DNA of 64,000 nucleotides from a virus (IMGVR_UViG_3300049491_000383:64001-128000); one strand, 5' to 3'. Counted from the first letter of the stretch, positions 22,175-63,116 are shown. Program-made: numbers and translations. The notes: generated from the letters alone by a model not told the origin.

Positions 22175-23608
22175 TTAGAAGTCGTAACGCTGGACCATGA
22201 CGGTCTTCAGCATGATGCTGATCGGTGTCATTTCTTCACCACCTAGCACTGACTTAACAATGCTTGGAGAGAAGCCAGACACAAGAGCTGCACCAGCCTT
22301 GTTATAGGTCACCGGGCTGTTACCGGCGCGGCCGTTCAAGTTCCAGAATACAACCTGCGGTACCTTGTACCCTGCAGCCTGATATTCCTTCTCGATGAAC
22401 TCCATCGCCGATACGCTAACCGGGCCGCCGCCTGTCGAGTAACGACCGCTCTTACCAGTACCACCCGAAGTGATGCACTGGTCGAATTCCATGTCCGACA
22501 AGATCAAGACCTTTGTCGGCATTTCCTTCTGCGGAACCTTACCCTTGATTGCGGCAGACAAGATTAACTTGAATACTGCACCCAGGTCGGTGTTCATTCC
22601 CCAATCCGAACGTTCCATCTGGTTGAAACGCTGTTCCAAAGTACCAGACAACTTTACCATCTGTGGCGAACCAGAGAAAGTAACGAACTGATCCTTGAAC
22701 ACACCACCCATACGCTCGGAAGTGTACAGGCCAAGTGATACAGCTACGTCCAGCGCAGTTACGCTACCGGATACGGCCACACCGCTCATCGAGCCCGAAA
22801 CGTCAACAACCGGTAGGATGTTTTCGTCAGAACCTTCCAAGTAGTTAGGCAATGCCTTCCACTGTGCGTTTGCAACAGCCTTGTCACCGTTACGAAGCGA
22901 ACGGATCACATCGTAAGGGTACGCAACCGAAGCGTTGATCTTGGCTTCACCAGATTCCAACTTCTCCTTGTACTTTGCGTAACCGGCCGGGTCGTGCTTC
23001 AAGAATGCCTTCTGGTAACGACCAGCAGCAACTGAAGGAACGTGTGGGTACACGATTCCAGTCCAGTCCTGAGCGCACATCTTCTGTTCAACAGTGTTGG
23101 ACAGACCGACCAAAAGCTTACGGTAAGCCTTAGGAGTCAACTTCATGTACGAACGGATCTTGTTGGCTTGTTCGCCCTGACGCGGCATCCACTTCGCGCA
23201 CAGACCGTCTTGCACGTCGTTCAACGCGAAAGCAATCATGCGCAGAGCATCACGCTCCAGCACAGTACCAAAAGTCATCAAGACGTCGTCCCAACGACCA
23301 AGTTCGGGAACCTTCACCAACAGGCGTTCTGCAAGCTTCGGCTCGGAACGGATTACGTAACCGAACAGCTTACGGAAAGTTTCACGCTCACCCGCACCAC
23401 CACGTGCGTCACGAGCCCATTCAAGGACACGGATCGCAACTTCGGAGTCTTCCACCAAAGCACCTGCGAAAGTGCTTGTGATGTCCTTACCACGGCTTGC
23501 ACCGGCCAAGAAGAAGAGGTCCACGTTCTTGTTCAAAGACGAGGAGTTTGTAACTGCGCCGTTGGAAGTTACTGCGGATGCGTTTACGGCTTCAAATAGT
23601 GTTGTCAT
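22175..23608 (-). CDS. DUF2828-family helical + vWA protein (Ro60/TROVE-like architecture)
   Basis: RDARGGAGER, GRWDD, AKWMPR, MIDAS VVDVSGSM, ILSDMEFD, VFWNL, LVSGFSP. Confidence 0.85.
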   Translation of the reverse strand: MTTLFEAVNASAVTSNGAVTNSSSLNKNVDLFFLAGASRGKDITSTFAGALVEDSEVAIRVLEWARDARGGAGERETFRKLFGYVIRSEPKLAERLLVKVPELGRWDDVLMTFGTVLERDALRMIAFALNDVQDGLCAKWMPRQGEQANKIRSYMKLTPKAYRKLLVGLSNTVEQKMCAQDWTGIVYPHVPSVAAGRYQKAFLKHDPAGYAKYKEKLESGEAKINASVAYPYDVIRSLRNGDKAVANAQWKALPNYLEGSDENILPVVDVSGSMSGVAVSGSVTALDVAVSLGLYTSERMGGVFKDQFVTFSGSPQMVKLSGTLEQRFNQMERSDWGMNTDLGAVFKLILSAAIKGKVPQKEMPTKVLILSDMEFDQCITSGGTGKSGRYSTGGGPVSVSAMEFIEKEYQAAGYKVPQVVFWNLNGRAGNSPVTYNKAGAALVSGFSPSIVKSVLGGEEMTPISIMLKTVMVQRYDF

Positions 23609-23623
23609 TTTGTTTTTCCTTTA

Positions 23624-23746
23624 TCAGAATCAGTTTTACTTTGCCTGCTGCTCTACCAACTGAGCTACCTCACTATTTCTAGTGAAGGCGGGACTCGAAC
23701 CCACGACCGTCTGGTTATATTAAGTTTTGTTGCGGAATTGATTCTT
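23624..23746 (-). ncRNA. Y-RNA (YrlA)-like RNA with circularly permuted tRNA module; element copy A
   Basis: Closing stem AGAAUCA/UGAUUCU; T arm (GUGGGUUCGAGUCCCGC) precedes a loop-closed acceptor-like stem and a D arm (GCUCAGUUGGUAGAGC); abuts the Ro60-like gene. Confidence 0.8.
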
Positions 23747-23801
23747 TATTATAGAGAGGTATTCGATACAACTCAGTGTTCGGATACATCCATAAATAAA
23801 A

Positions 23802-23903
23802 TCAGATTAGCTTTTGGCGAGTTTTTGCTTTCCCCTCCGGAAAGGTTCTTTGACCCGAAGGCCAAATAGTTCATGGTTTTATTTTGTTGCTGTAACTAAT
23901 CTT
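23802..23903 (-). ncRNA. stem + NUWCMGCAA element, copy B
   Basis: AGAUUAG-UUACAGCAA...CUAAUCU-G; internal UUCG hairpin. Confidence 0.7.
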
Positions 23904-23924
23904 TAGTGTTTGCAAGTGTCTACT

Positions 23925-24305
23925 TTATACTTCTTCCACAATCTCGTCAATGAATTCAGTTACGTATCCGGGGTTTGGGCAACTTACAGCCGGGTCAACA
24001 AGAATTGTTGCTCCAATTGTAATCTCTTCATCGTCGGAATCAACCAACTCATAAGAGATATAGTAACCACCGGTGCCTGTAAACGAATGCCATTCATCGG
24101 GGAGTTCAACCTTGAGTTGCTTCTCTTTGATGATTACCTTAGCATTATTCATTGCACCCCTTCGAATCATCTCCTGAATGCTTTTCATTACATCAAAAAC
24201 ATTCTGGGGTTCCGAAGGCCATTTAGTAACGCTCGTATTCTTCTCCCAAATAAAGGCTGCGGCCTCGTGTAAGGCTGCGAGAGGATACGATACATTAACA
24301 ATCAT
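23925..24305 (-). CDS. hypothetical protein
   Basis: 126-aa ORF between element copies B and C. Confidence 0.6.
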   Translation of the reverse strand: MIVNVSYPLAALHEAAAFIWEKNTSVTKWPSEPQNVFDVMKSIQEMIRRGAMNNAKVIIKEKQLKVELPDEWHSFTGTGGYYISYELVDSDDEEITIGATILVDPAVSCPNPGYVTEFIDEIVEEV

Positions 24306-24329
24306 TGTGCTTCTTTCTAAAGTAGAAAA

Positions 24330-24591
24330 CAGAGTGATGTCAGGGACAAACTTTTCATCCGGAGATTACTAACTTTGCTAAGAGAGCCTAACCCCTCGTT
24401 CGAACCTTTTACATCGTCCTAGGATGTTTGCTGTACGTAACATCTGGTTTCAACGCCATGCTTCTTGAGGCTATAGCTCCACCAGAATTACTAATGCACA
24501 CCTTCAACGGGTTGCCCCTCCACTATGCATCTTTTAACCAGCGCCATGATACGGATTTTACGCCGTGAATTGGTTTGCTGTATTCACTCTT
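24330..24591 (-). ncRNA. stem + NUWCMGCAA element, copy C (long, ~260 nt)
   Basis: AGAGUGA-AUACAGCAA...UCACUCU-G; just downstream of a TTGACG/TATAAT promoter. Confidence 0.65.
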
Positions 24592-24606
24592 TGTATATAA
24601 CAAGTC

Positions 24607-24638
24607 TTATTATATAGTGTGTTTACTTATCCCGTCAA
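24607..24638 (-). promoter_or_regulatory. sigma70-type promoter upstream of the RNA/Ro60-like locus
   Basis: TTGACG...TATAAT on the minus strand. Confidence 0.6.
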
Positions 24639-24676
24639 CCTAAAACCGTTGCGATAATAGGTCAAAAATGACGGTT

Positions 24677-25423
24677 TTATTTTTGCGATTGGACGTGTTG
24701 TAACTCTTTGTCAATGAAATCTGCACCACGCTTCAAAAGCCGCTTATAATCCGGAGAATTATTTTTATCTCGGAACATGCCTGCTACGTCATGTACTTCT
24801 AATTCATACTTGAGCATTTTGTGTGCCTTGTTTCGTGCCTCAATCTGTGGCAGGGCTGCAAGACGTTTGATCTTTGGTACAAGAGAATTTAGGACTTGGA
24901 CAAATCTAGCATTTATTTCTGCAGGCTGCGCCAGATACTTCATATCTGGAGCATAAGGATCGTTCTTCGACTTTCTATATTCTTTATCTTTAGGAGTTGA
25001 ATATCGCTTACTTGCTGCTACTCTGTATTCAGATTTAACATCGTCCAACATGTGTCTAAGTTCATGAGCTATCGTAGACTTCATGAAATCCGATGATAGA
25101 TAATCAGAGTTAAATATCATTGATTTAGTATTTGCATCCCAGAGGCCGCCAGGTGCATCTTTAGTGCCCGGATTTTCTTTTCTGACACGATCCAATAATG
25201 CAGAGTCGGACATGATGACAATCTTTATGTCATCTATTCCCTCAAATGGTGTGTCGAGGATTTGCCCAATCTTCCCTACATACAATGTTTCAGTATTTTC
25301 GTCGTCCCAATCTAAATCCTGATCTGCATATTTTTGCAGGAAAGAATAAAGCGGGTCAGCTAGGGAGATTAGTGCCCTATCTTCTTCTGTAGTTTCAACT
25401 AGGAATAATTCTTGCAGTCTCAT
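24677..25423 (-). CDS. HExxH metallopeptidase-like late protein
   Basis: IAHELRHMLD, Y..QPAEINARF; MRLQELFLVE N-terminus. Confidence 0.6.
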   Translation of the reverse strand: MRLQELFLVETTEEDRALISLADPLYSFLQKYADQDLDWDDENTETLYVGKIGQILDTPFEGIDDIKIVIMSDSALLDRVRKENPGTKDAPGGLWDANTKSMIFNSDYLSSDFMKSTIAHELRHMLDDVKSEYRVAASKRYSTPKDKEYRKSKNDPYAPDMKYLAQPAEINARFVQVLNSLVPKIKRLAALPQIEARNKAHKMLKYELEVHDVAGMFRDKNNSPDYKRLLKRGADFIDKELQHVQSQK

Positions 25424-25454
25424 AGCGTATCCTTGATACGCTATTTATCACAAA

Positions 25455-25841
25455 TCAGGTAACAGCAACACCACGAAGAATGTCAAACTCGTTTGGACGA
25501 AGTTTGAGTTCAATCATGATATCGCGGCGCTCTTCGTCTGTCTTTTTGATCCAGGCAGTCATAGACTTTTCATCACCACGCATATAGGATGGCATATTGC
25601 CATCAATCCATTTAGCAAGGTCCTTGAAACTCCTACCGCTCCATGAACTATCAGCTCGTAGTATGGCTGTCTGAAAGTTATTCTTCAGCACTGCTTCCAG
25701 AAAGCTCCCTGGTGGCAATCCATAAGCCATGTAGTTCCACAATCCTTCCCGAATAGCATCTGGAACAGAATCAAAATAGGCAAATGTTGCCGTAAATTGC
25801 GGATGGATTGATCTGTAGTCCATAAGTGGCCTATATTCCAT
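25455..25841 (-). CDS. hypothetical protein
   Basis: 128-aa ORF containing PPGSFLEAVL.N. Confidence 0.6.
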   Translation of the reverse strand: MEYRPLMDYRSIHPQFTATFAYFDSVPDAIREGLWNYMAYGLPPGSFLEAVLKNNFQTAILRADSSWSGRSFKDLAKWIDGNMPSYMRGDEKSMTAWIKKTDEERRDIMIELKLRPNEFDILRGVAVT

Positions 25842-26018
25842 TAATGGATCTTGAATCCAGTAAGGTTAAGCAACCAGCCAAGAACGTAGAGCAGGGCCAA
25901 CAATGGCCACGCAATTCCGAGCAGTAACGAGTCCTGTTTGGAGACAGAACTCTCGCGTGTGCGGTAAGCAACGATTCCACCAATCAGAAAATAAATCAAC
26001 AGTGCAGTTAAAATCATA

Positions 26019-27104
26019 TCAATCCTCTTCCTTTAATAGGAATTTGTTGCTGATGGTTTTGAAACTAAAACCACCATCCATTCTCTTGTAAACAAGACCT
26101 TCACGAATCGCATGCTTGATGCTAGGACCTTCTGCAAATGCAAGCAACTTATCCACATCAAACAACCCGAATTCATACAATGGAACATCCATATGCAGAA
26201 CAGGGACATGATGTACCATCTCGCGATTTACACCTCGTGCCCAAAGCTCATCCAAAATCAGATGACGTTCTCTCGGAGGTACATAACCACCTGTGGTAAT
26301 ATTGAAGATGTCAAACACAAACAATTTATGCGAAGCAAATGCCTCACGATTCTTCTGTATACCCGGGCCCATGAGCTCAGCTTGTACAGCAAAATCTCTG
26401 TCAAAAGAGCGCATAATATCGTGTAGCCCGCTGTCTACAAACATGCGTACCAAACTATTGTGCTCGTTTTTAGGATCATCCAACTTCAGTTCCCAATTAC
26501 GACCGCAAACACCCGGAACACCATCCTTTACAAATGCAGTAAAGGAAGTACCATCGAACTTCATGCTGATTTCGTAACGTGCATCCGCGTTATCAACAAA
26601 GATATCGCGCTTCATGTTTTGGCAACGTTCCTGATCAGTCTTTCGAATGAATGCAGGGAAGTTACCCTTCACTTGACCAGCAAGTTCTGTAGGAATGGCA
26701 GCTTCATACTTCTGGATATCCAACAAGTCAGATACGTCGGTGCCGACCATAAAGAACTCTGAAAGTTCCTGTCCTTCATCTTCGTCGGAATCAATAAAGT
26801 CGTTGAAGAACAAATTCACAGGTAATGCAAGGCCCTGGCTGAGCTGACCACGCAACTTAATAGTCTTGATACGGAAACCCTCACGCTCTCCCATTCTCTT
26901 GGAGGAGTTTCTGCGCAAGATTTCGAATTCGGGACGGACAGGCAAATGGCTGTCGATTTCAAAGTAGACACACAAATCGCCCACATTGAATTCAGACTTC
27001 TTTACCACGCATTGCCAGCCATCAATTTTTGCCAGCTGAACTAAGTCCGCACCTTCGATAGGTAGCAGATCATCAATCCTACGTATTGTTGCAAGCTTTC
27101 TCAT
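26019..27104 (-). CDS. RNA ligase (Rnl2/DRB0094 family)
   Basis: MRKLATIRRI...IEGAD, KTDQER, KFDGTS, AELMGPGIQKN, EGLVYK, SFKTISN. Confidence 0.92.
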   Translation of the reverse strand: MRKLATIRRIDDLLPIEGADLVQLAKIDGWQCVVKKSEFNVGDLCVYFEIDSHLPVRPEFEILRRNSSKRMGEREGFRIKTIKLRGQLSQGLALPVNLFFNDFIDSDEDEGQELSEFFMVGTDVSDLLDIQKYEAAIPTELAGQVKGNFPAFIRKTDQERCQNMKRDIFVDNADARYEISMKFDGTSFTAFVKDGVPGVCGRNWELKLDDPKNEHNSLVRMFVDSGLHDIMRSFDRDFAVQAELMGPGIQKNREAFASHKLFVFDIFNITTGGYVPPRERHLILDELWARGVNREMVHHVPVLHMDVPLYEFGLFDVDKLLAFAEGPSIKHAIREGLVYKRMDGGFSFKTISNKFLLKEED

Positions 27105-27375
27105 AAGACACCTATTTTACATTAGTACAAATGGAAATGCTACCTTCCCAGGTAGCATTTCCGGCGAGTTAATTACTCGTCTTCATCGTCTCGGTAGTTG
27201 CGATAAGGACTTGCGTATCGAGCGTCTACCAATACTCCGGGCTGTCTTGGGTCTCTTACCCAAATCGCATTTTCACAGCTTGCGGACCATTTACATTTGT
27301 TGCAACCACTCCAGAAGTTGTCTTCCCACATGGTTGCTTCATCTGTATTCCCACACTTGGGGCAACGAACGCCCA

Positions 27376-28299
27376 TTACTTCTTCTTGGTAGCGACAGCC
27401 GGGGTCGGCAGGTCGTAGTAGGCCCACTTACCCTTGTTGGCTGCATCCACTTGTGCCCAGGCCGGGTGAGCGCCATCAGCATCTTGGAAGACACCGATGT
27501 TGTCATACACACACTTGCGGAAGCTGGCCAACATGCCAAGCTTGTCCGGAGTGTTGTAGGTACGTGTCACCAGCAGAGCTTCAGTGGCAATCGTGCCAAC
27601 TGCGGTCGGGCTCAGCTTCGGATACGACAGCTTGTCAGCCACATACACAGTCTTCAGCAGTTCCACAGTCTTCGGCTGGAAACCCACGAGCTTGAACTCG
27701 GCACCCAGCGCCTTGACGTTGCCCAGGGGTTGACCACCAACCATCATCACGCCTTGCACTTGACCAGCTTTCAACAGGGCGAGAGCTTCATCATTGTCCT
27801 TGGCAGGAACAACAGTGTAGTTCACCTGACCTTGCAGCTTCACCAGCTGGGCGGTAATCATGGAACCACCTGCGGCAGCAACCTTCATGTTGGCAAGGTC
27901 TTCCACAGTATTGAACACAACTTCCTTGCCGCCGAAGCCAGCAACGCCACCACTCTTCAGACCCGAAGCCGACAACACAACAACGTGAGCCGCTTCACGG
28001 TTGAAAGCAACCAGCGTCTTGATGTTGCCCAGGTCGCGGCCTTGTGCCGAAGCGAACAGTGCATCGGTCTGCATGAATGCAGCGCCAACTTCCTTGCCGC
28101 TCAGCTTGTCGAGGTTTTCCAGCGAACCGCTCGAAGGAACTTCGATCATCGCCATTTGGTCACCGCACTTTTCAGCAATGTTGGCGAACAGCGCGTGGTA
28201 AGTACCCTTCGGACCACCAGTTGCCACCTTCACTTGTTGAGCTTGTGCGGCCATTGCACATACAGCCAGCACGGCTGCAAAAATCATCTTTTGTTTCAT
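27376..28299 (-). CDS. TAXI-family TRAP solute-binding protein
   Basis: Signal peptide, VATGGPKGTY, SSGSLENL, AFMQTD, E.AHVV. Confidence 0.8.
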   Translation of the reverse strand: MKQKMIFAAVLAVCAMAAQAQQVKVATGGPKGTYHALFANIAEKCGDQMAMIEVPSSGSLENLDKLSGKEVGAAFMQTDALFASAQGRDLGNIKTLVAFNREAAHVVVLSASGLKSGGVAGFGGKEVVFNTVEDLANMKVAAAGGSMITAQLVKLQGQVNYTVVPAKDNDEALALLKAGQVQGVMMVGGQPLGNVKALGAEFKLVGFQPKTVELLKTVYVADKLSYPKLSPTAVGTIATEALLVTRTYNTPDKLGMLASFRKCVYDNIGVFQDADGAHPAWAQVDAANKGKWAYYDLPTPAVATKKK

Positions 28300-29293: not shown

Positions 29294-29358
29294 TGTATGT
29301 CCTTTCTGTGTTAGACCATCATACTATATAAGTATGTCAATCTTGTGTCAATCAAACC

Positions 29359-31784: not shown

Positions 31785-31800
31785 ATTTGATCTTTCTTGA

Positions 31801-33011: not shown

Positions 33012-33017
33012 AGGTGT

Positions 33018-38975: not shown

Positions 38976-39031
38976 TCAGAATGCTTATTTTCAAATTACA
39001 AGTTTGATTTTTAGTTGCTGAACGCATTCTT
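38976..39031 (-). ncRNA. stem + NUWCMGCAA element, copy D (Thr-UGU anticodon-loop hairpin)
   Basis: AGAAUGC-GUUCAGCAA...UCAAA-CUUGUAA-UUUGA...GCAUUCU-G. Confidence 0.75.
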
Positions 39032-42981: not shown

Positions 42982-43057
42982 TGGCGCGTTGTCGGGGGAT
43001 CGAACCCCGTCACCTTCAGATTTAGAATCCGCCGCTCTCCCACTGAGCTAACAACGC
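42982..43057 (-). tRNA. amber suppressor tRNA (anticodon CUA)
   Basis: GCGUUGU/ACAACGC acceptor, loop UUCUAAA, G73-CCA. Confidence 0.85.
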
Positions 43058-45173: not shown

Positions 45174-45282
45174 GTTTTCCTTTCTTACAGCACACTGAGT
45201 AAGTGCTCAATAGTTTAAAACTCAGTTAGGTACCCACTGTGGGCAAAACTATTTATCACCGGCACAAAATTATGCCAAAGAA

Positions 45283-45303
45283 AATGGGGCCGAAGCCCCA
45301 TGG
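45283..45303 (-). terminator. terminator after tmRNA
   Basis: UGGGGC-UUCG-GCCCCA followed by a U-tract. Confidence 0.7.
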
Positions 45304-45304
45304 T

Positions 45305-45683
45305 ATTTTGGTTTACAAGGTATAACCTACCCCGGAGTCTAGTGTTTCTTAGGCAGCTAGGAGCATCATGTCGCTATCAGCCAAGGCTGAAAGGTCAAGA
45401 GCTGTCTCAGTTGTAATTGCGTTTGCTTTTACGGTTTGTGCTTGATTTACGGTCATCGCCTACCGTGTTGTCCACTCTCGTACTCTTTACCCCGTCGAAT
45501 ACCTGGTCCGCCCCATTATTAAACATACCGTGAAAAATTCGAATTCTCTTTCCTGCCCATACAACAGGTGACCGTCTTTAAGCTGGAGTCGAACCAGCAA
45601 TAACCCATTCGATATGTTTAATGGTGGAGCGGGCGGGAATCGAACCCGCGTCCGGAACACTTTTCTGTTCGCTTCATACAACA
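45305..45683 (-). ncRNA. ssrA: two-piece (circularly permuted) tmRNA
   Basis: Acceptor piece ending GGUUCGAUUCCCGCCCGCUCCACCA (45622) precedes the coding piece starting GGGGCGGA..UUCGACGGG (45514); G3-U70; tag ANAITTETALDLSALADSDMMLLAA*. Confidence 0.9.
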
Positions 45684-45718
45684 ATAACTAACTACTTTAT
45701 AGCATTCTATTTATCTTG

Positions 45719-56843: not shown

Positions 56844-57352
56844 CAAATCTGATTAGGCGTGTGGAAAAAGAGGATGCTGCAAAGATGCTCTCCGAAATTT
56901 CTACTATAGAAGATCTATTTGGTAATCATTATCGTGGAAACACCGCATACAAAGGCAGTGCTCTCGATGATGGGAAGTCCGTATGGATACACGAAGGAAA
57001 GCTCGATGATATTTTCCTTCTTGATGATAAGCTTCCCTTTGTATCTTCATACATTCGTGACACTCTAAATCTATTAGATTCAAAGAAGGTGGGTCGTGCC
57101 TATGTCTACAATTTGGGTCCAGGACTCGAAATATTTGAACACGTAGATAGGCAACAATACTATCACATTACAAAAAGATACCATATCTACTTTGATGTCA
57201 CAGATATTGAAATTAGACATAGTGGTCCTCCTGTTGAGTCGAATACCGTTATCTTTTTCAATCCTCTAGAACCACACGCATACAAGAACAATTCAGACAA
57301 ACCGCTAATCTTTATAGTATTCGATACTTACAATGAAACAAGAAATATTTAA
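56840..57352 (+). CDS. 2OG-Fe(II) oxygenase, AspH-like
   Basis: EHVD, RYHI, FNPLEPHAYKN..IVFD. Confidence 0.75.
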   Translation: MTNLIRRVEKEDAAKMLSEISTIEDLFGNHYRGNTAYKGSALDDGKSVWIHEGKLDDIFLLDDKLPFVSSYIRDTLNLLDSKKVGRAYVYNLGPGLEIFEHVDRQQYYHITKRYHIYFDVTDIEIRHSGPPVESNTVIFFNPLEPHAYKNNSDKPLIFIVFDTYNETRNI

Positions 57353-58229
57353 GGTACAAGAGCTGTATCCAAAAGAGGGAATGCTTGTCATTTGGTCATT
57401 GGGCAATTTCTGCCCATACAAGTGTACCTATTGCAGTCCGCACTATAATGATGGACGAGATCCATATCACTCTTTAGAAAATATTAATTCTACATTGGCT
57501 CTGATTCCAAAGCAGTCTAGGATTATATTTTCGGGTGGTGAGCCAACCTATCATCCTAACTTTGAAGAAATATTAGATAACAAACCCGACCATTTTACAT
57601 ATGGTGTAATCAGTAATGGCGCAAGACCGTATGCGTTTTGGGAAAGGGTATTATCAAAACTATCACCAATCATTCTTACATTCCATTCCGAATTTGCAAC
57701 ACTAGATCGATTTCTAGAAACTGCAATGCTTTGCAAGCCCAGACTTCAGAGAATTAATCTAACAATGATTCCATGGATGTGGGAAGAGAGTGTGAATGCA
57801 TATGAGACATTTACAAAATTCGGATTACCTGTATCTCCAAAACCACTTGTGAAAGATTTTGGATTTAAATCAAGTTCTCTAATTGATCAATACCTACCCG
57901 AACAGGTAGAGTGGATTAAGAGCAAGAACAACGACGGTGAATTAAAGTACATCGGGCTGTATAATTCAAAAGGCGATCTTCTAAAGAAGACTAATCCATC
58001 TGAGATGTTATCCTCTGGAGAGACAAACTTCCTCGGGTGGCAATGCCATACCCCATCAAAAACTTTGTACATAAACACCGACGGGAAAATCTATGACACC
58101 TCGTGCAAGCAGAGACGCCTTTTAGGCACAGTATCCACCGGTTTTACGCTACAAACAGACCCTGTCACCTGCCAGCAAGACTTCTGCTGGTGTCACCCAG
58201 ACATAGCTCCACTAAAAATCAAGCCATAA
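57333..58229 (+). CDS. radical SAM protein with C-terminal Cys cluster
   Basis: CPYKCTYC, FSGGEPT, GWQC...SC...C...CWC. Confidence 0.9.
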   Translation: MKQEIFKVQELYPKEGMLVIWSLGNFCPYKCTYCSPHYNDGRDPYHSLENINSTLALIPKQSRIIFSGGEPTYHPNFEEILDNKPDHFTYGVISNGARPYAFWERVLSKLSPIILTFHSEFATLDRFLETAMLCKPRLQRINLTMIPWMWEESVNAYETFTKFGLPVSPKPLVKDFGFKSSSLIDQYLPEQVEWIKSKNNDGELKYIGLYNSKGDLLKKTNPSEMLSSGETNFLGWQCHTPSKTLYINTDGKIYDTSCKQRRLLGTVSTGFTLQTDPVTCQQDFCWCHPDIAPLKIKP

Positions 58230-58260
58230 AAAAAGCTCGTTACCTTTCGATAACGAGCTA
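58229..58260. terminator. terminator hairpin between convergent units
   Basis: AAAAAA-AGCTCGTTA...TAACGAGCT. Confidence 0.65.
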
Positions 58261-58263
58261 GAA

Positions 58264-58339
58264 TGGCACCCCGCTAGGGATTCGAACCCCAACCGCGCAG
58301 CTTTGGAGGCCGGCATGCTGCCAATAACACTTGCGAGAT
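58264..58339 (-). tRNA. tRNA-Trp(CCA)
   Basis: Loop CUCCAAA, G73-CCA. Confidence 0.88.
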
Positions 58340-58344
58340 ATATG

Positions 58345-58419
58345 TGGAGCCGCCAAGAGGAATCGAACCCCTATTTGAACGTTCGTAGCGTTCTGTCCTA
58401 TCCGTTGAACGATGGCGAC
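58345..58419 (-). tRNA. tRNA-Arg(ACG)
   Basis: Loop CUACGAA, CCA. Confidence 0.9.
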
Positions 58420-58437
58420 ATGTAATTATTTATGATT

Positions 58438-58512
58438 TGGCAGGGGAGGAAGGGATCGAACCTTCTAACCTGGTTTCAAAGACCAGTATGCATACCATTG
58501 CATATCACCCCA
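58438..58512 (-). tRNA. tRNA-Gln(UUG)
   Basis: Loop CUUUGAA, CCA. Confidence 0.85.
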
Positions 58513-58522
58513 ACTGTATAGA

Positions 58523-58581
58523 CAGAATACGTTTTATTTTCAATTAAAAGTTGATTTTTTGAAATTGCTGAATGTATTCTT
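58523..58581 (-). ncRNA. stem + NUWCMGCAA element, copy E (Lys-UUU anticodon-loop hairpin)
   Basis: AGAAUAC-AUUCAGCAA...UCAA-CUUUUAA-UUGA...GUAUUCU-G. Confidence 0.75.
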
Positions 58582-58910
58582 TAGAAAACTTTACTTTACG
58601 AAGTTGGGTTGACCTTCTCGGGCTTTCCACTTCAAATGGATCCATCCTTTTGGTACATAATGACTAATTCCAGTCTCGTCAAACAGACGATGACCTCCTG
58701 CACTAACCGATAACTTCGATGGCTTTGAAATTGTTACAACTTCTCCGCCAGGAAATGTGTATGAGCGGTAATCTTCGCTCGAAATATCTGAAAAGATATT
58801 GCTTGATTCATTAACAAATGGTGTCATAAGACCTCCTAATTGATTAAAACACTTACTTGCCTTGGAAATCAAGGACGAAGTGTATTGAATCATATTTATC
58901 TGATTTCTAT

Positions 58911-58987
58911 TGGTACCCCTAGTTGGATTCGAACCTACAACCAACAGATTTTAAGTCTGTCCGCACTACCGATTAGCGTATAGGGGC
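58911..58987 (-). tRNA. tRNA-Leu(UAA), short variable region
   Basis: Loop CUUAAAA, 77 nt, CCA. Confidence 0.85.
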
Positions 58988-59172
58988 ATAAAAGATCAGT
59001 ATGAGTTCGAATTTTGCTGTGAACCTGCAGCCGGTTATTCCACAGTTGAGGGCTATGCCTTGCCACAGATGCACCCCGGCTCGACAATATTCGACCAACC
59101 TTCCAGGAGCTTGCTCACAATGTCCTGGATAAAGCCCGGTGTGACTGTGTCTCCCCATACTGAAGGGCAAAA

Positions 59173-59264
59173 TGGAGGCCAGGGTTGGATTCGAACCAAC
59201 GATGTATACCTGGGTAGTTTCCCGCTTTGCAGACGGGTGCGTTCGGCCGCTTTGCTACCTGGCC
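59173..59264 (-). tRNA. tRNA-Cys(GCA) with long variable arm
   Basis: Loop CUGCAAA, U73-CCA, ~20-nt variable region. Confidence 0.82.
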
Positions 59265-59414
59265 ATATTCTGACTGCTAATGTATTAGACCGTTGCAGTA
59301 CATATGCAACAGTATACCACCTGCATTGCAAGTGAGCAAGATCAATCTAATAACGTAGTAACTTCGTTTATAATCCGACGTATACCACCGCTGTAGCACA
59401 TACAGGTCGGCTTC

Positions 59415-59792
59415 TTAGGTTGCGTCTGCGCCCAATTCTTCCTGAAGCTTCTTGAACATTTTGATCTTGGATGCCTTATCCTTTAGTTCCTTCTTGAACT
59501 TACGCTCAAGTGCAGCTTCTTCTCTCTTCTTTTTTTCCTCTTCGGCCTTCTTGGCTTCAGCGTTAGCAATTGCTAAGTAATCCTTGAGGGTTCTTGCAAC
59601 GAATGCCTTTGTATCTAACGGCTGTTCAAGAATTTGAAATCCCATTCTTGGTGCTGCGAATTGCAGAGCCTTAAACTCTTCATCAGTAACTGATTCCCAT
59701 TCAGTAATGCTAGTTACAATCTTGTTGTAATCTTCACCATCATATCCAGAATAGAATTCACGTGATGTGATAATTGCAATCTTGTGTGTCAT
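59415..59792 (-). CDS. hypothetical protein
   Basis: MTHKIAIITS..., AAGGA SD; upstream in-frame extension overlaps RNA genes. Confidence 0.6.
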   Translation of the reverse strand: MTHKIAIITSREFYSGYDGEDYNKIVTSITEWESVTDEEFKALQFAAPRMGFQILEQPLDTKAFVARTLKDYLAIANAEAKKAEEEKKKREEAALERKFKKELKDKASKIKMFKKLQEELGADAT

Positions 59793-59808
59793 AGTTTTCC
59801 TTATATAG

Positions 59809-59873
59809 TCAGAGTGCGCTTTCTTTTCAAGATAATGGTTTGAAATTGTTTTAGGTTTGCGGTAAACACTCTT
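59809..59873 (-). ncRNA. stem + NUWCMGCAA element, copy G
   Basis: AGAGUGU-UUACCGCAA...UUUCAA-9 nt-UUGAAA...GCACUCU-G. Confidence 0.7.
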
Positions 59874-59880
59874 TAGAAAG

Positions 59881-59964
59881 TGGTGGGGCGTCCAGGTAAC
59901 GATCCTGGCGGGCCGAAGCAACGGATTTACAGTCCGCTCCATCTCCTTAGTGGTCTACCACCCC
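59881..59964 (-). tRNA. tRNA-Tyr(GUA)
   Basis: Loop CUGUAAA, variable arm, CCA. Confidence 0.88.
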
Positions 59965-60500
59965 GTATTGGTCAGCAGAACGTTGCCAGCGTGGAGAAAC
60001 ATTGTCTATGAGAACAAGCGGTTCTACTCCAATATCTATACACCATCTGCTTCAGCTATTGCTGCCATCAGGCATAATGCAAGAACTCTTCGCTTTTGGT
60101 TTGTTGGTTCCTTCGGTGAACCAAACGTTCCTCTATACAATGTATTATTGTATTTTTCATTTTGAAACAAGTAACACATCGCCATAGCTTCCGGAATGTT
60201 GTAGTTGAAGAATTCCATTGACATGGGCTTCTTATATTTCACCATGTAGATAGCTGTGCAACAAAACAAAGCCTTTCCAGACTCCACTAGCTTTGCTGCT
60301 TCAAGGTATAGTGTACTTGTCTTCATTTATCAATCTCAATGTCTTCGCCACGAAGTTTTGCAACTGTCGCAGCTTCTTTACACTTCTTTGATTTACAAAA
60401 GTAAGTCCTTCCTATGCCCTTGCGATCATTTGGCTGCAAGGAAAACATATACTTTCTGCAATTATCACAGTGAACATCAATTGTTCTGCTTGTCATATTA

Positions 60501-60576
60501 TGGTAGGCCCTGACAGCATCGAACTGTCATCACTCCGCTTAAAAGGCGGGTCTCTAGCCATTTGAGTTAAGGACCC
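60501..60576 (-). tRNA. tRNA-Lys(UUU)
   Basis: Loop CUUUUAA, CCA. Confidence 0.85.
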
Positions 60577-60585
60577 ATTGTATTG

Positions 60586-60660
60586 TGGTAGGACCGGGGA
60601 ATTTCGAAATCCCGACCAACGGATTAAAAGTCCGCTGCTCTTCCTCTGAGCTACGATCCC
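60586..60660 (-). tRNA. tRNA-Lys(UUU), second copy
   Basis: Loop CUUUUAA, CCA. Confidence 0.88.
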
Positions 60661-60974
60661 TCAGATTATTTCGATGGTTTAGTTAGGACTTCGTGTCCAT
60701 CTCCTTGTTGTCCCGGTGTTGCCATTGTAGTTCCTTGTGACGCGATGCGCCTGTTAAGTAATTCTCTTAAATCTTTCATGTTGCCTGCCTGTGCTCCGGT
60801 CATCCAATGATTAAGACTGGGTGAAAGATAATATGCAAGCTTTCTATATAGGTCGCTATCGCCTTCTGTCTCCTCAACATGCTTCTGAAGAAGCAATGCA
60901 TTAGACAGGGCAATACTGAGACTGTTCTCAATGTGATCGATATAATTCTTCACAACGTCCATTGTAATCCTTAG

Positions 60975-61063
60975 TGGCGGATGATAGAGGATTTGAACCT
61001 CTGGACCGTTTATAGGTCGACGGTTTAGCAAACCGTTGCAATAAGCCTCTCTGCCAATCATCC
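60975..61063 (-). tRNA. tRNA-Ser(GCU)
   Basis: Loop UUGCUAA, long variable arm, CCA. Confidence 0.9.
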
Positions 61064-61214
61064 AAATTTTAAATCCTTGTAGGGAGTCGAACCCTGAGAG
61101 TATCAGTCTCTAGACCTTAGCCGTGTACCTACTAGATTTCGGGTTGCCTTTCTCTGATACATACTCGGCATGCGGTCCTACTTCTCGTTCGGCGATCTAA
61201 CAAGGACAAGTCTA

Positions 61215-61457
61215 TTATAGAGTCGTTGCTTTCTCAGAAGCAATCGACTCCAGATGCTTGCGAATGTAACGCATGAATAGCATCGCTTTATCTTCTCTTA
61301 GAAATACACCGTCTCCCACATCCTCAATAGGAACAGGGAACTCAAAACCATCAACTTCTTTGTCAAATGCCTCAACGCGGTAGAATAATTCTCCCTTGCG
61401 GTACATTACAAATTGAACACGGTTACCAGAGGCAACGTATGATTTTAAAGTTGGCAT
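61215..61457 (-). CDS. conserved small phage protein
   Basis: FEFPVPIEDVGDGVFLREDKAMLFMRYIRK. Confidence 0.65.
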   Translation of the reverse strand: MPTLKSYVASGNRVQFVMYRKGELFYRVEAFDKEVDGFEFPVPIEDVGDGVFLREDKAMLFMRYIRKHLESIASEKATTL

Positions 61458-61579
61458 ATCTTTCCTTTATTATTGAATTCACAGCGCCAGGAATCGAACC
61501 TAGAGTACCAATATGAACGGAATCGAACCGTCTCTTCGGGCTGCGCGCGGTTCCCGGGCACCAAGCCTCACTGTGAAAC

Positions 61580-61656
61580 TGGCAAGGGATCTCGGACTCG
61601 AACCGAGGCTTTCATGGCTCAGAACCACGCTACTCTTCCCGTTAAGCTACTCCCCA
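61580..61656 (-). tRNA. tRNA-Gln(CUG)
   Basis: Loop UUCUGAG, CCA. Confidence 0.8.
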
Positions 61657-61741
61657 ATTGTCTTTGGTGCCCCCGGGCTTACACCTACTACCTCATGTGG
61701 CCTACATGAGCGTTCTTCCATTCCAGGATGAGAGCATTATT

Positions 61742-61817
61742 TGGCATGCCTACGGGGAATCGAACCCCGCTTTACACCGTGAAAGGGTGTCGTCCTAAAC
61801 CGATAGACGATAGGCAC
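61742..61817 (-). tRNA. tRNA-Glu(UUC)
   Basis: Loop CUUUCAC, CCA. Confidence 0.9.
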
Positions 61818-61823
61818 AATGTA

Positions 61824-61895
61824 TGGCAAGGGCGATGAGAATCGAACTCATTCCAACCAGGTTCAAAGCCTAGTGTCTCTCCAAGAGTCGCCCCA
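61824..61895 (-). tRNA. tRNA-Gln(UUG), minimal D arm
   Basis: Loop CUUUGAA, CCA. Confidence 0.7.
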
Positions 61896-61901
61896 ATTGT
61901 A

Positions 61902-61978
61902 TGGCATCCCCATTGGGATTCGAACCCAACTTTCCACCTTGAGAGGGTAGCGTCCTGAAACCACTAGACGATGGAGAT
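61902..61978 (-). tRNA. tRNA-Glu(CUC)
   Basis: Loop CUCUCAA, CCA. Confidence 0.88.
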
Positions 61979-61989
61979 ATAAATATATC

Positions 61990-62439
61990 GTGTTAAAACA
62001 AATAGATACAGATCCATTCATTGAATATCCAGAACTGCTCGACATCTGGCCACATAGGCGAGTCGAAATACTCCGTGATGTACAGGATTGTTTGGAACAT
62101 CCAGAACTTGAGCGAATGTTTCTAATAATTTACAACAACAAACCGGTAGGTATCACAGGTTATTACCAATATGATAACCAAGTCGGTCTAAACTGGCACG
62201 GTATTCTTAAAGAATACAGCGGGTATGGATACGGACTAGCAGCACTTAAGGAATTACTTCCTCTTGCCATTGCCCATTATCCCAATGCTACATATCTAAT
62301 TGAAGAATTACCTGCAATCTCTGAAAAAGAACTTAGTAGTTTCTTTCTAAAGGCCGGCTTTATGAAAACAAACATACTTGTTGATAAACCGTGGATCACA
62401 GACGATACCGATTGGATCGAATATCGTCTAAAACTCTAA
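61990..62439 (+). CDS. GNAT acetyltransferase
   Basis: KPVGITG, GILKEYSGYGYG, FFLKAGF; TATAAATA upstream. Confidence 0.75.
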   Translation: MLKQIDTDPFIEYPELLDIWPHRRVEILRDVQDCLEHPELERMFLIIYNNKPVGITGYYQYDNQVGLNWHGILKEYSGYGYGLAALKELLPLAIAHYPNATYLIEELPAISEKELSSFFLKAGFMKTNILVDKPWITDDTDWIEYRLKL

Positions 62440-62629
62440 TCCCAACCAAGCGTTACCTCTGTAACATACAGATGGCACATGACGCTCTTATAATTCAGCC
62501 TAATTAGGAGGTTGGCACCATTTTTATAAGTGATGACTCCACGATTATATCGTTTATGTATGGCCATCCACGTGGGGACCCGTACCTTGTCACCTACTTG
62601 AAATATGTGCCGTGCCATTGTTATCCTTA

Positions 62630-62700
62630 TGGACCCACCGGAGGGATTCGAACCCCCTACATGACGTTCGTAGCGTCTTGGCTATTCCAATAGCGGTGAG
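62630..62700 (-). tRNA. tRNA-Arg(ACG), short/atypical
   Basis: Loop CUACGAA, 71 nt, CCA. Confidence 0.65.
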
Positions 62701-62972
62701 ATTAATAATATTTATCAAATACAGTCAGTTGACGTCTTTGCTTACTATAGTATTCTCTCTCAAGTCTGTCAACATCGGCTGCGTCTTGCGGATGGCCGGC
62801 TGTGATGTAAGCTTCCAGGTTGTGATGGTAGCTAGGCTCTGCGAAAATTTCTTTGATGTAAGCGATAAAGTTTGAAAACATAATGTGCTCCTTAGTATTG
62901 ATAACTATTTACCAATATTTGCTGCATTGCAGCATTTATATCAGTATAAACACTAAGAACCACAAAAGTCAA

Positions 62973-63048
62973 TGGTCGCGTATGGTGGATTCGAACCACC
63001 GTATTCATTCTTATGAGGAATGCGCTCTAGCCTCTCTGCCAATACGCG
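62973..63048 (-). tRNA. tRNA(CAU) Met or Ile2
   Basis: Loop CUCAUAA, CCA. Confidence 0.85.
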
Positions 63049-63057
63049 ATAAAATAA

Positions 63058-63116
63058 TCAGGATACCTTTTTGCTTTTTTACAGAAAAGTTGATTTGGGT
63101 TGCGGAATGTATCCTT
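63058..63116 (-). ncRNA. stem + NUWCMGCAA element, copy F (Tyr-GUA-like loop)
   Basis: AGGAUAC-AUUCCGCAA...UUUU-CUGUAAA-AAAG...GUAUCCU-G. Confidence 0.72.

What the first reader, a model, noticed from the sequence alone, without database searches (positions are those of the whole stretch)
22175..63116. Ro60-like (DUF2828/vWA) protein with a seven-member family of modular RNAs sharing one candidate binding handle
Seen: seven minus-strand non-coding elements (23624-23746, 23802-23903, 24330-24591, 38976-39031, 58523-58581, 59809-59873, 63058-63116) share one architecture. Each has a 7-bp closing stem, a fixed-spacing NUWCMGCAA motif right after the 5' strand, a variable cargo and a 3' strand ending CUG. 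The stems covary: AGAAUCA/UGAUUCU, AGAUUAG/CUAAUCU, AGAGUGA/UCACUCU, AGAAUGC/GCAUUCU, AGAAUAC/GUAUUCU, AGAGUGU/GCACUCU, AGGAUAC/GUAUCCU. Three copies lie directly upstream of the DUF2828/vWA gene, downstream of one promoter. Known: Ro60/Rsr proteins (TROVE + vWA) bind the terminal stem of Y RNAs, which carry variable effector modules. Inference: this is a divergent Ro/Y-RNA system in which one protein docks several RNAs with different cargoes. I know of no description of this motif, but could not search for one.
Basis: partly seen in the sequence, partly recalled or inferred. Interest (0 to 1): 0.92.

Follow-up and report, generated by a model that had tools for sequence, protein, structure and literature searches.

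The report
Phage Ro60-like protein's partner RNAs
A giant freshwater phage encodes a ring-shaped Ro60-like protein and at least ten small RNA genes that share one conserved "handle" and carry tRNA look-alike parts, a protein-RNA pairing that recurs in many phages and bacteria and is probably an undescribed branch of the Ro60/Y-RNA particle.

Summary
All seven minus-strand elements have a 7-bp closing stem, N-UWCMGCAA directly after the 5' strand, and a 3' CUG. Three more copies lie just beyond the window in the same 136-kb phage record.

The 477-aa DUF2828/DUF7788 protein folds (pLDDT 90.9) as a full-length Ro60: VIA Z 22.7 to 1yvr, and the 13 best Foldseek hits are all Ro60/TROVE.

The handle travels with this gene, on the gene's strand:
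- 200 copies against 3 on the opposite strand in 110 viral loci.
- 93 against 4 in 80 bacterial or archaeal loci.
- Control motifs gave 3-19.
- T4, T5, phiKZ and phage G lack the gene and have no model hit better than E 0.05. KVP40 has both.

Cargoes mimic tRNA parts: YrlA-type permuted tRNA bodies, bare anticodon loops, and a CCA-ending tRNA with the handle inserted.

The nearest Rfam families are YrlA and Dictyostelium Class I RNA. Both score below threshold.

Binding, expression and function are untested. Earlier runs of this scan reported the same pairing on other DNA. I judge it a new variant of the known Ro60/Y-RNA kind.

The parts
22175..23608 (-). Ro60-like protein gene (477 aa; Pfam DUF2828 + DUF7788; PHROG 850 'RNA-binding protein')
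   Evidence: Pfam and PHROG hits. AF2 with an 84-sequence alignment gave pLDDT 90.9, pTM 0.90. Foldseek top 13 are all Ro60/TROVE. VIA Z 22.7, rmsd 3.9 A, 402 residues aligned to 1yvr. MIDAS-type residues D269, S271, S273, T340 and D372 are invariant in 84 sequences.
23624..23746 (-). Handle RNA 1: YrlA-type permuted tRNA body (T arm, acceptor stem sealed by GAAA, D arm). It ends 16 nt before the start codon.
   Evidence: Sequence. Rfam YrlA 35.8 bits, E 7e-6, model positions 27-81. R1 27.9 bits, E 3.9e-5.
23802..23903 (-). Handle RNA 2: two-hairpin cargo with a conserved 3' half
   Evidence: R1 31.5 bits, E 3.9e-6. Ten aligned orthologues keep the closing stem and a CCUUUCC/GGGAAAG-type hairpin, with compensatory changes.
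24330..24591 (-). Handle RNA 3: conserved structured cargo of about 210-270 nt, of unknown type
   Evidence: 7/7 stem. Nine orthologues give 26 predicted pairs, 13 of them with compensatory changes. No Rfam match in 23550-24700 apart from noise. R1 misses it.
24609..24638 (-). Sigma-70-like promoter match (TTGACG, 18 nt, TATAAT) upstream of RNA 3
   Evidence: 11 of 12 matches. This is a consensus match only.
38976..39031 (-). Handle mini-RNA with a 5-bp hairpin whose 7-nt loop is CUUGUAA, the same as the phage tRNA-Thr(UGU) anticodon loop
   Evidence: R1 52.3 bits, E 6.6e-12. Loop identity.
58523..58581 (-). Handle mini-RNA with loop CUUUUAA, the same as the phage tRNA-Lys(UUU) anticodon loop. 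It lies directly upstream of tRNA-Gln.
   Evidence: R1 57.7 bits, E 2e-13. Rfam Dicty_Class_I_RNA 34.8 bits against a gathering score of 41.5. Loop identity.
59809..59873 (-). Handle mini-RNA with a 6-bp hairpin and a 9-nt loop. It lies directly downstream of tRNA-Tyr.
   Evidence: R1 42.8 bits, E 2.7e-9. Fold.
63058..63116 (-). Handle mini-RNA with loop CUGUAAA, the same as the phage tRNA-Tyr(GUA) anticodon loop. It lies directly upstream of tRNA-Met.
   Evidence: R1 53.6 bits, E 2.9e-12. Loop identity.
26019..27104 (-). RNA ligase gene (context only; membership of the system is uncertain)
   Evidence: Pfam RNA_ligase PF09414 and PHA02142 OB domain. It lies within 3 kb of the Ro60-like gene in only 12 of 110 related viral loci, all close relatives.

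Best explanation
This is a divergent Ro60/Y-RNA particle of a jumbo phage. The DUF2828/DUF7788 protein is a Ro60-type ring: a HEAT-repeat TROVE-like domain plus a vWA domain with a MIDAS site.

Inferred: the protein docks on a shared RNA handle. The handle is a 7-bp helix that begins A-G and ends C-U, is flanked by a conserved A and G, and is followed on the 5' strand side by single-stranded (N)UWCMGCAA. This plays the part that the GGUCCGA and GNCGAA stems play in animal and bacterial Y RNAs.

Shown by sequence: at least ten RNAs in this record carry the handle and display different cargoes, most of them pieces of tRNA:
- permuted tRNA bodies, as in YrlA;
- bare anticodon stem-loops;
- one complete permuted tRNA;
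- one normal CCA-ending tRNA with the handle hairpin inserted between the D and anticodon arms;
- two conserved cargoes of unknown type.

Inferred: the cargo connects the ring to proteins that recognise tRNA. It could tether tRNA-handling or RNA-repair/decay enzymes, or act as a decoy for host enzymes that attack anticodon loops.

Inferred: a handle copy just upstream of the gene's ribosome-binding site may let the protein regulate its own mRNA.
For: Protein:
- AF2 pLDDT 90.9.
- The 13 best Foldseek hits are all Ro60/TROVE, including Thermus phage phiLo Ro60, Xenopus and human Ro60 and Deinococcus Rsr.
- VIA Z 22.7 over residues 6-459, against about 10 for vWA-only chains.
- A profile of 84 relatives finds TROVE/Ro60 chains first in the PDB, weakly (E 0.016-0.07, MIDAS region only).
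- Pfam vWA_Ro60 matches 18 of 84 relatives.

Linkage, viral loci:
- In 110 viral loci (741 kb) that encode a relative (41-87% identity), the handle (motif + 7 bp + G) occurs 200 times on the gene's strand in 87 loci, against 3 on the other strand. Four control motifs gave 4-19.
- 169 of 273 on-strand TWCMGCAA sites have a perfect partner, against 25-32 with a reversed or shuffled 7-mer.
- Of 168 AG-starting copies, 121 lie upstream of the gene, 47 downstream and 0 inside it. In 31 of 110 loci a copy ends 10-30 nt before the ATG.

Linkage, cellular contigs and whole genomes:
- In 80 bacterial/archaeal contigs (34-51% identity): 93 on-strand copies in 53 loci against 4 on the other strand; controls 3-10.
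- Complete 363-385-kb relatives have 3-6 R1 hits each at E <= 0.01, all on the gene's strand.
- T4, T5, phiKZ and phage G lack PF11443 and have no R1 hit better than E 0.05.
- KVP40 has the gene, an R1 hit at E 1.3e-9 in an unannotated gap of its tRNA cluster, and further copies found by script.
- The KVP40 gene's own leader holds the motif, with a stem that reaches the AUG.

Cargo:
- YrlA hit, 35.8 bits. Relatives score 40.1, 32.4 and 28.7 bits.
- 14 of 55 short members have a 5-bp hairpin with loop CUNNNAA, against 0.02 in shuffles.
- The loops of three window members equal the anticodon loops of the phage's own tRNA-Thr, -Lys and -Tyr.

Precedent:
- Y RNAs lie next to Ro60 genes in over 250 bacteria and phages (Chen 2014, PMC4201824, passages read).
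- phiLo Ro60 binds two adjacent Y-like RNAs (PMC12135203, passages read).
Against: - No experiment or RNA-seq shows that the RNAs are made or that the protein binds them.
- Pfam TROVE (PF05731) is not among the 25 families listed for 84 relatives (37 matched in all), and there is no NCBIfam hit. Homology to Ro60 therefore rests on fold and on weak profile signals.
- The handle differs from the published Ro60 motifs (GNCGAA, GGUCCGA, CGAA). The Rfam YrlA model matches only the tRNA-like core, not the stem.
- 23 of 110 viral loci and 27 of 80 cellular loci showed no copy under my strict rule, and one 246-kb relative (77% complete) had no R1 hit.
- The gene usually sits in tRNA arrays, so part of the linkage could come from shared location.
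- In Dictyostelium, the look-alike Class I RNAs are reported to bind an RRM protein, Rnp1A (PMC7919456, passages read), not a Ro60-like one.
- Only four negative-control phage genomes were searched.
Confidence: 0.75

Rival explanations
1. The handle is a maturation or stability signal for small RNAs made from phage tRNA arrays. Some other factor recognises it (a ribonuclease, a ligase, or an RRM protein as in Dictyostelium). The Ro60-like gene is merely a frequent resident of the same arrays.
For: - Four of the seven window copies abut tRNA genes.
- The conserved bases sit exactly at the predicted RNA ends (A-AG ... CUG-A/U).
- The related loci are dense in tRNAs.
- Class I RNAs with the same plan bind Rnp1A (PMC7919456, passages read).
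Against: - tRNA-rich phages without the gene (T4, T5, phage G) have no R1 hit better than E 0.05.
- Copies cluster within 400 nt of the gene. They often end 10-30 nt before its ATG, also in loci at 34-50% identity.
- Ro60 proteins are known to bind adjacent stem-closed RNAs (PMC4201824, PMC12135203).
- The two readings are not exclusive.
Confidence: 0.12
2. The handle is mainly a cis-acting operator in the leader of the Ro60-like mRNA. The dispersed copies would be decayed or incidental duplicates.
For: - 31 of 110 viral loci have a copy ending 10-30 nt before the start codon.
- In KVP40 the motif lies in the leader and its stem overlaps the AUG.
- Some relatives have a 34-nt mini-copy at positions -47 to -14.
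Against: - Copies tens of kb from the gene keep stem, motif and strand: this record and complete relatives at 13-43 kb, and KVP40 at about 7 kb.
- Stems covary while cargoes are conserved structured RNAs or tRNA mimics.
- 47 of 168 copies lie downstream of the gene.
Confidence: 0.05
3. The elements are a selfish repeat (miniature mobile element) or a chance cluster of a short motif.
For: There are many copies per genome, and HNH endonuclease genes lie nearby.
Against: - Copies share only the handle, not flanks or cargo.
- Strand bias is strict: 8 against 0, 200 against 3, 93 against 4.
- The pairing excess over controls is large.
- Shuffles and backwards controls give almost nothing.
Confidence: 0.02

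Closest known systems
Bacterial and phage Ro60 (Rsr) with the Y RNAs YrlA/YrlB (Rfam RF02553; Chen et al. 2014, PMC4201824)
   Same: - A ring protein of the Ro60 fold with a vWA/MIDAS domain.
- Stem-closed small RNAs encoded next to the gene.
- A conserved short motif just after the 5' strand of the closing stem.
- A tRNA-like cargo in the order T arm, sealed acceptor stem, D arm.
   Different: - The protein belongs to Pfam DUF2828/DUF7788, not TROVE.
- The motif is UWCMGCAA, not GNCGAA.
- The YrlA model scores 35.8 bits against a threshold of 69, and only on the tRNA-like core.
- There are at least ten RNAs in 136 kb, scattered through tRNA arrays.
- Some cargoes have not been described for Y RNAs: bare anticodon loops and a whole CCA-ending tRNA.
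Thermus phage phiLo Ro60 with Yrl1/Yrl2 (PDB 9KOP, 9L5Y; PMC12135203)
   Same: - A phage-encoded Ro60 with two Y-like RNAs directly upstream of its gene.
- It is the best Foldseek hit of the model (E 1.8e-9).
- Binding of RNA to protein was shown there by EMSA and cryo-EM (passages read).
   Different: - 18% identity; VIA Z 16.6 against 22.7 for Xenopus Ro60.
- The phiLo RNAs were picked by a CGAA motif.
- No tRNA-part cargoes or large RNA family are reported in the passages I read.
Class I RNAs of dictyostelid social amoebae (Rfam RF01414; Kjellin et al. 2021, PMC7919456)
   Same: - About 55-60 nt long.
- A short stem joins the 5' and 3' ends. It begins with a conserved G and is followed at the 3' end by CUG(U).
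- A conserved motif CUUACAGCAA lies directly after the 5' strand.
- The rest of the RNA is variable (alignment; paper passages).
- Element 58523-58579 matches the whole model at 34.8 bits.
   Different: - All scores are below the gathering score of 41.5: 34.8, 20.7 and 32.2 bits.
- Class I RNAs are reported only in Dictyostelia, have their own promoter element, and bind the RRM protein Rnp1A.
- No link to a Ro60-like protein is stated in the passages read.
- Whether amoebae have a DUF2828 protein was not tested here.
Circularly permuted tRNA genes (red alga Cyanidioschyzon; recalled, no call)
   Same: The 3' half of a tRNA is encoded before the 5' half, and the outer ends pair in a helix.
   Different: In the alga the helix is a splicing motif and a normal tRNA results. 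Here the acceptor stem is sealed by a short loop, there is no CCA, and the helix carries the handle. These look like stable mimics rather than tRNA precursors. This is an inference.

Membership tests
Ro60 / TROVE protein family | HEAT-repeat ring (TROVE fold) followed by a vWA domain, over the full length | tested here: met
   The AF2 model (pLDDT 90.9) aligns to 1yvr at Z 22.7, rmsd 3.9 A, 402 residues (model residues 6-459). All top 13 Foldseek hits are Ro60/TROVE. vWA-only chains score Z about 10.
Ro60 / TROVE protein family | Sequence match to Pfam TROVE (PF05731) | tested here: not met
   No TROVE hit for the window protein at E <= 1, and TROVE is not among the 25 families listed for 84 relatives (37 matched in all). 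Only vWA_Ro60 (PF25045) matched, in 18 of 84 (best E 7e-4). The profile against PDB sequences reaches TROVE chains at E 0.016-0.07 in the MIDAS region only.
Ro60 / TROVE protein family | MIDAS motif (DxSxS ... T ... D) in the vWA domain | tested here: met
   D269, S271, S273, T340 and D372 are invariant in the 84-sequence alignment. This segment aligns with the DVSxS segment of Ro60 chains.
Ro60 / TROVE protein family | Binds Y RNAs on the outer surface and misfolded RNA ends in the central hole | not testable with these tools
   No tool here handles a protein-RNA complex. No RNA run is on record.
YrlA Y RNA (Rfam RF02553) | Score at or above the gathering score (69 bits) | tested here: not met
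   35.8 bits for 23650-23708, model positions 27-81 only. Relatives score 40.1, 32.4 and 28.7 bits. The second tRNA-like member (G000 130560-130678) has no hit at E <= 1.
YrlA Y RNA (Rfam RF02553) | tRNA-like domain (T arm, sealed acceptor stem, D arm) closed by a terminal stem, encoded next to a Ro60 gene | tested here: met
   Sequence and fold of 23624-23746 and of G000 130560-130678. The first ends 16 nt before the gene's ATG.
YrlA Y RNA (Rfam RF02553) | GNCGAA(N)G motif near the 5' end (Chen 2014) | tested here: not met
   The conserved motif in all copies is (N)UWCMGCAA.
Dictyostelium Class I RNA (Rfam RF01414) | Score at or above the gathering score (41.5 bits) | tested here: not met
   34.8 bits (58523-58579), 20.7 bits (59810-59871) and 32.2 bits (L037). 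No hit appeared in the gathering-threshold scan of the window.
Dictyostelium Class I RNA (Rfam RF01414) | Short stem joining the ends + conserved motif after the 5' strand + 3' CUG(U) + variable rest, about 60 nt | tested here: met
   Full-length alignment to the model consensus. Four window members are 56-65 nt.
Dictyostelium Class I RNA (Rfam RF01414) | Dictyostelid origin with a DUSE promoter about 60 nt upstream | tested here: not met
   The record is a phage contig and the elements sit in bacterial-type tRNA arrays. I did not search for DUSE itself.

The most novel reading that the evidence does not exclude
The stem + CAGCAA handle is an ancient, portable docking tag for a second, unstudied lineage of Ro60 rings (DUF2828), shared from phages and bacteria to social amoebae. 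On this reading the unexplained Class I RNAs would be its Y RNAs.

In phages the tag would be fused to tRNA parts so that the ring can do one of two things. It could present decoy anticodon loops (Lys, Thr, Tyr, Arg, Asn and others) to host anticodon nucleases. Or it could escort and quality-control the phage's own tRNAs, including chargeable CCA-ending tRNAs that carry the tag inside their body.
Probability: 0.25. Interest if true: 0.9.

Novelty: new variant of a known kind. Interest (0 to 1): 0.8.

Why it matters
Ro60 and its Y RNAs are a long-studied particle, important in human autoimmunity, whose function in bacteria and phages is still unclear.

**A large overlooked lineage.** This protein family had 6177 hits among cluster representatives at E <= 0.001. 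It has its own RNA handle, which would greatly enlarge the known set of Y-like RNAs.

**A clue to function.** The cargoes found here are bare anticodon loops identical to those of the phage's own tRNAs, permuted tRNA bodies, and a handle-tagged tRNA. They suggest that the particle deals with proteins that read tRNAs. In a phage with 55 tRNA genes in 136 kb, this points to the tRNA-centred conflict between phages and bacterial defences.

**An experimental entry point.** The same system is present in the cultured Vibrio phage KVP40, so the ideas are directly testable.

**A possible link to amoebae.** The likeness to Dictyostelium Class I RNAs offers a candidate explanation for an abundant RNA class of unknown mechanism.

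Tried and rejected
- my first window pattern had one N too many. It found only chance-level matches and is void. The corrected pattern was used.
- AF2 on the single sequence failed (pLDDT 35). I repeated it with an alignment.
- phmmer of the protein against PDB sequences found nothing meaningful.
- no NCBIfam family matched.
- the second tRNA-like member (G000 130560-130678) gave no Rfam YrlA hit at E <= 1.
- no RNA holder is listed among the public runs. 14 DNA runs were listed, one of which may be the source. Expression therefore could not be examined, and read laying was not used.
- **Inner motif of element 24330-24591:** I considered the inner UACAGCAA to be a second handle. It is not conserved among nine orthologues, so I dropped the idea.
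- **RNA ligase as a fixed partner:** I considered the ligase at 26019-27104 to be a fixed partner, as rtcB is in the Salmonella rsr operon. It is a neighbour in only 12 of 110 loci, so it is listed as context only.
- **Ribozyme or known cis-element:** no Rfam family reached its gathering score at any element.
- **Splicing (bulge-helix-bulge) precursor of permuted tRNAs:** I saw no such motif by eye, and the acceptor stems are sealed. I did not test this further.
- **Amoebal DUF2828 protein:**
- **Papers:** Avesson et al. 2011 (the proteins bound to Class I RNA) is not in the library. Supplements of Chen 2014 (lists of phage Y RNAs) and of Kjellin 2021 were not seen and could bear on novelty.
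- **Literature searches for a prior description:** (DUF2828; Ro60/TROVE/Y RNA/phage/KVP40). None links DUF2828 proteins or KVP40 to Y-like RNAs. I read only search listings and the passages named.

Full report
**Setting.** The window is bases 64001-128000 of a 136,079-base virus record that CheckV rates 35% complete. That implies a jumbo phage. ARAGORN finds 33 tRNA genes and a permuted tmRNA in the window, and 55 tRNAs plus the tmRNA in the whole record, all on the minus strand. Rfam at gathering thresholds finds only tRNAs and the permuted tmRNA, and nothing at the seven elements.

**Observation.** Read on the minus strand, each of the seven elements begins A-AG. Each has a 7-nt 5' strand, one spacer base and then T-W-C-M-G-C-A-A. 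Each ends with the complementary 7-nt strand followed by G, then usually A or U.
- A script that demands the motif, seven pairs and nothing else recovers all seven. It also recovers a few unrelated hits that lack the AG start. Shuffled windows give 2.9 such hits on average.
- The sharper pattern AGRRTNNNTWCMGCAA occurs 8 times on the minus strand of the record, never on the plus strand, and never when read backwards.
- Three more members lie beyond the window's end. G000 130691-130797 has a 6/7 stem and a T-loop-like cargo. G000 130560-130678 is described below. A third lies at G000 133508-133655.
- Covariance model R1, built from 40 short members (4 from this window, 36 from other loci), finds 6 of the 7 window elements at E 2e-13 to 3.9e-5. 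It finds nothing else in 64 kb on either strand at E <= 1. The 262-nt element is too long for it.

**The protein.** ORF 22175-23608 (477 aa) matches Pfam DUF7788 (E 3.8e-51), Pfam DUF2828 (E 1e-26) and PHROG 850 'RNA-binding protein'.
- It has 6177 relatives at E <= 0.001 among 1.84 billion cluster representatives.
- A single-sequence fold failed. With an 84-sequence alignment, AF2 gave pLDDT 90.9 and pTM 0.90.
- The 13 best Foldseek matches in the PDB are all Ro60/TROVE proteins: Thermus phage phiLo Ro60, Xenopus and human Ro60, and Deinococcus Rsr. The matches after those cover only the vWA domain.
- VIA-align gives Z 22.7, rmsd 3.9 A and 402 aligned residues to 1yvr across model residues 6-459. 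vWA-only chains give about 10.
- The MIDAS residues are invariant in the family.
- Sequence evidence is weak. A family profile ranks TROVE/Ro60 chains first, but at E 0.016-0.07 and only around the MIDAS site. Pfam TROVE is not among the families listed for 84 relatives, and vWA_Ro60 matches 18 of them.
- I conclude that the protein has the Ro60 architecture and is a very distant relative, or a separate lineage, of TROVE proteins.

**Linkage of handle and gene, viral loci.** Two scans of IMG/VR gave 110 distinct loci encoding a relative at 41-87% identity, each with up to 3 kb of flanks.
- The handle (motif, seven pairs, leading A, trailing G) occurs 200 times on the gene's strand in 87 loci and 3 times on the other strand.
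- Four control motifs of the same composition, under the same pairing rule, gave 4 to 19.
- Taking the motif alone, 273 copies lie on the gene's strand and 89 on the other. Of the 273, 169 have a perfect partner within 330 nt, against 25 and 32 when the 7-mer is reversed or shuffled.
- Stems differ freely between copies while the A-G ... C-U-G frame stays fixed.
- Of 168 AG-starting copies, 121 lie upstream of the gene, 47 downstream and none inside. 31 of 110 loci have a copy ending 10-30 nt before the start codon, as in the window.

**Linkage of handle and gene, cellular contigs and whole genomes.**
- 80 contigs of bacterial and archaeal genome assemblies encode relatives at 34-51% identity. 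Many are metagenome bins, so some may be phage DNA. They show the same pattern: 93 copies on the gene's strand in 53 loci, 4 on the other strand, controls 3-10.
- Four complete relatives of 363-385 kb have 3-6 R1 hits each at E <= 0.01, all on the gene's strand and up to tens of kb from it. A fifth record (246 kb, 77% complete) has none. These are lower bounds, because only 150 candidates per genome were scored.
- As negative controls, T4, T5, phiKZ and Bacillus phage G lack PF11443 and have no R1 hit better than E 0.05.
- KVP40 has the gene and an R1 hit at E 1.3e-9 (176662-176724). The hit lies in an unannotated gap of its tRNA cluster, on the gene's strand.
- My script finds further KVP40 copies of about 90 and 214 nt.
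- The leader of the KVP40 gene itself holds UACAGCAA, flanked by a stem whose 3' strand reaches the AUG.
- Four controls are few. A full census is still needed.

**The cargoes.**
- **Element 23624-23746** reads: handle, linker, T arm, acceptor stem sealed by GAAA, D arm, linker, handle. This is the order of YrlA. The Rfam YrlA model matches its core at 35.8 bits (E 7e-6), below the threshold of 69. Relatives score 40.1, 32.4 and 28.7 bits.
- **G000 130560-130678** adds an anticodon-like arm (loop CUUGAAA), so it is a complete permuted tRNA.
- **G000 133508-133655** is the un-permuted form. It has a cloverleaf with a paired acceptor stem and ACCA end, a D arm, an anticodon-like arm (loop AUUACAA) and a T arm. 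About 45 nt are inserted between the D and anticodon arms. The insert consists of the handle helix closed by a small loop, followed by the motif. The same gene, with a nearly identical insert but loops AUGAUAA and CUCAUAA, exists in two complete relatives.
- **The four short window members** carry a small AU-rich hairpin. In three of them the 7-nt loop is identical to the anticodon loop of the phage's own tRNA-Thr(UGU), tRNA-Lys(UUU) or tRNA-Tyr(GUA), while the stems differ.
- **Short members across all loci:** 20 of 55 have a 5-bp/7-nt hairpin, and 14 of those loops read CUNNNAA. Shuffles give 0.02.
- **Elements 23802-23903 and 24330-24591** carry cargoes that are conserved and show compensatory changes in orthologues, but match nothing in Rfam. 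Their nature is unexplained.

**Comparison with what is known.**
- Y RNAs next to Ro60 genes, with a tRNA-like module, are known in over 250 bacteria and phages (Chen 2014, PMC4201824, passages read). That study started from genomes annotated with a TROVE domain, which would not include DUF2828 proteins.
- Its Ro60-contact motif is GNCGAA(N)G, near the 5' end.
- phiLo Ro60 binds two upstream Y-like RNAs with a CGAA motif, and host PNPase (PMC12135203, passages read).
- A review of jumbo phages notes TROVE proteins with a tRNA-like partner in a few of them (PMC7824862, passage read).
- A Vibrio jumbo-phage paper mentions a Ro60-related ORF without RNAs (PMC7765460, passages read).
- None of my six searches found a paper that ties DUF2828 proteins or KVP40 to such RNAs.
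- Following a lead from earlier notes of this scan, I tested the likeness to Dictyostelium Class I RNAs. Rfam RF01414 aligns over its full length to element 58523-58579 at 34.8 bits, against a threshold of 41.5. Its consensus has the same plan: a stem starting with G, then CUUACAGCAA, a variable middle, the 3' strand, and UG.
- The published description agrees: a stem joining the ends, an 11-nt motif, and a transcribed 3' CUGU whose C pairs with the conserved 5' G (PMC7919456, passages read). That paper reports an RRM protein as the direct binder and found no Class I RNAs outside Dictyostelia.

**Mechanism.**
- Shown: the fold of the protein, the anatomy and covariation of the handle, its strand-specific linkage to the gene family, and the tRNA-part nature of most cargoes.
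- Inferred: that the protein binds the handle, by analogy with Ro60 and because the motif follows the gene, including into its own leader. Also inferred: that the RNAs are stable products, and that the cargo connects the ring to tRNA-recognising proteins.
- Between a tether role (repair, decay, quality control of the phage's many tRNAs) and a decoy role (titrating enzymes that attack anticodon loops) I cannot decide. The bare anticodon loops fit the decoy idea best. The tagged, CCA-ending tRNA fits escort or quality control best.
- The leader copies suggest feedback on the protein's own translation.

**Verdict.** It is a new variant of a known kind. Earlier follow-ups of this scan reached the same reading on other genomes: 248 notes in at least 193 genomes hold the search words. 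I did not count those as evidence.

Noticed in passing
G000 133508-133655 (5.5 kb beyond the window's end); L125 and L129: A CCA-ending tRNA-like gene with the handle hairpin and motif inserted between the D and anticodon arms. It is conserved in two complete relatives, with different anticodon-like loops (UAC, GAU, CAU). ARAGORN does not call it.
   Followed up: partly
G000 130560-130797 (2.6 kb beyond the window's end): Two more family members in tandem between tRNA genes. One is a complete permuted tRNA with a sealed acceptor stem and a UGA anticodon-like loop.
   Followed up: partly
window 42982-43057 (-): A tRNA with anticodon CUA, which ARAGORN labels Pyl. It is an amber-suppressor-type tRNA and could mean that the phage reads TAG as a residue in some genes. 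I did not test this.
   Followed up: no
window 45258-45714 (-): A phage-encoded permuted tmRNA (Rfam tmRNA_permuted, 115 bits) with the tag ANAITTETALDLSALADSDMMLLAA.
   Followed up: no
window 17151-17246 (-): A 96-nt match to the Rfam tRNA model (58.2 bits) that ARAGORN did not report. It lies next to tRNA-Ser 17053-17142. It may be a long-arm or intron-bearing tRNA.
   Followed up: no
window 20513-22081 (-): Directly downstream of the Ro60-like gene lie an HNH endonuclease ORF (21683-22081) and a DNA/RNA non-specific endonuclease (20513-21334, Pfam PF01223, E 3e-40), with tRNA-Gly between them.
   Followed up: partly
L124 (KVP40 record 175581-175655, 177438-177519, 179301-179416): Three annotated 'pseudo-tRNAs' in the KVP40 tRNA cluster. 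The 116-nt one is a cloverleaf with a long insertion after the D arm. Unannotated handle RNAs lie in neighbouring gaps.
   Followed up: partly
window 23925-24305 (-): A 126-aa ORF with no Pfam or PHROG match sits between handle RNAs 3 and 2. It recurs in only 4 of 110 related loci.
   Followed up: partly
G000 129651-129721 (-): ARAGORN reports a tRNA with a two-base anticodon ('ca'), an odd anticodon loop inside the tRNA array.
   Followed up: no
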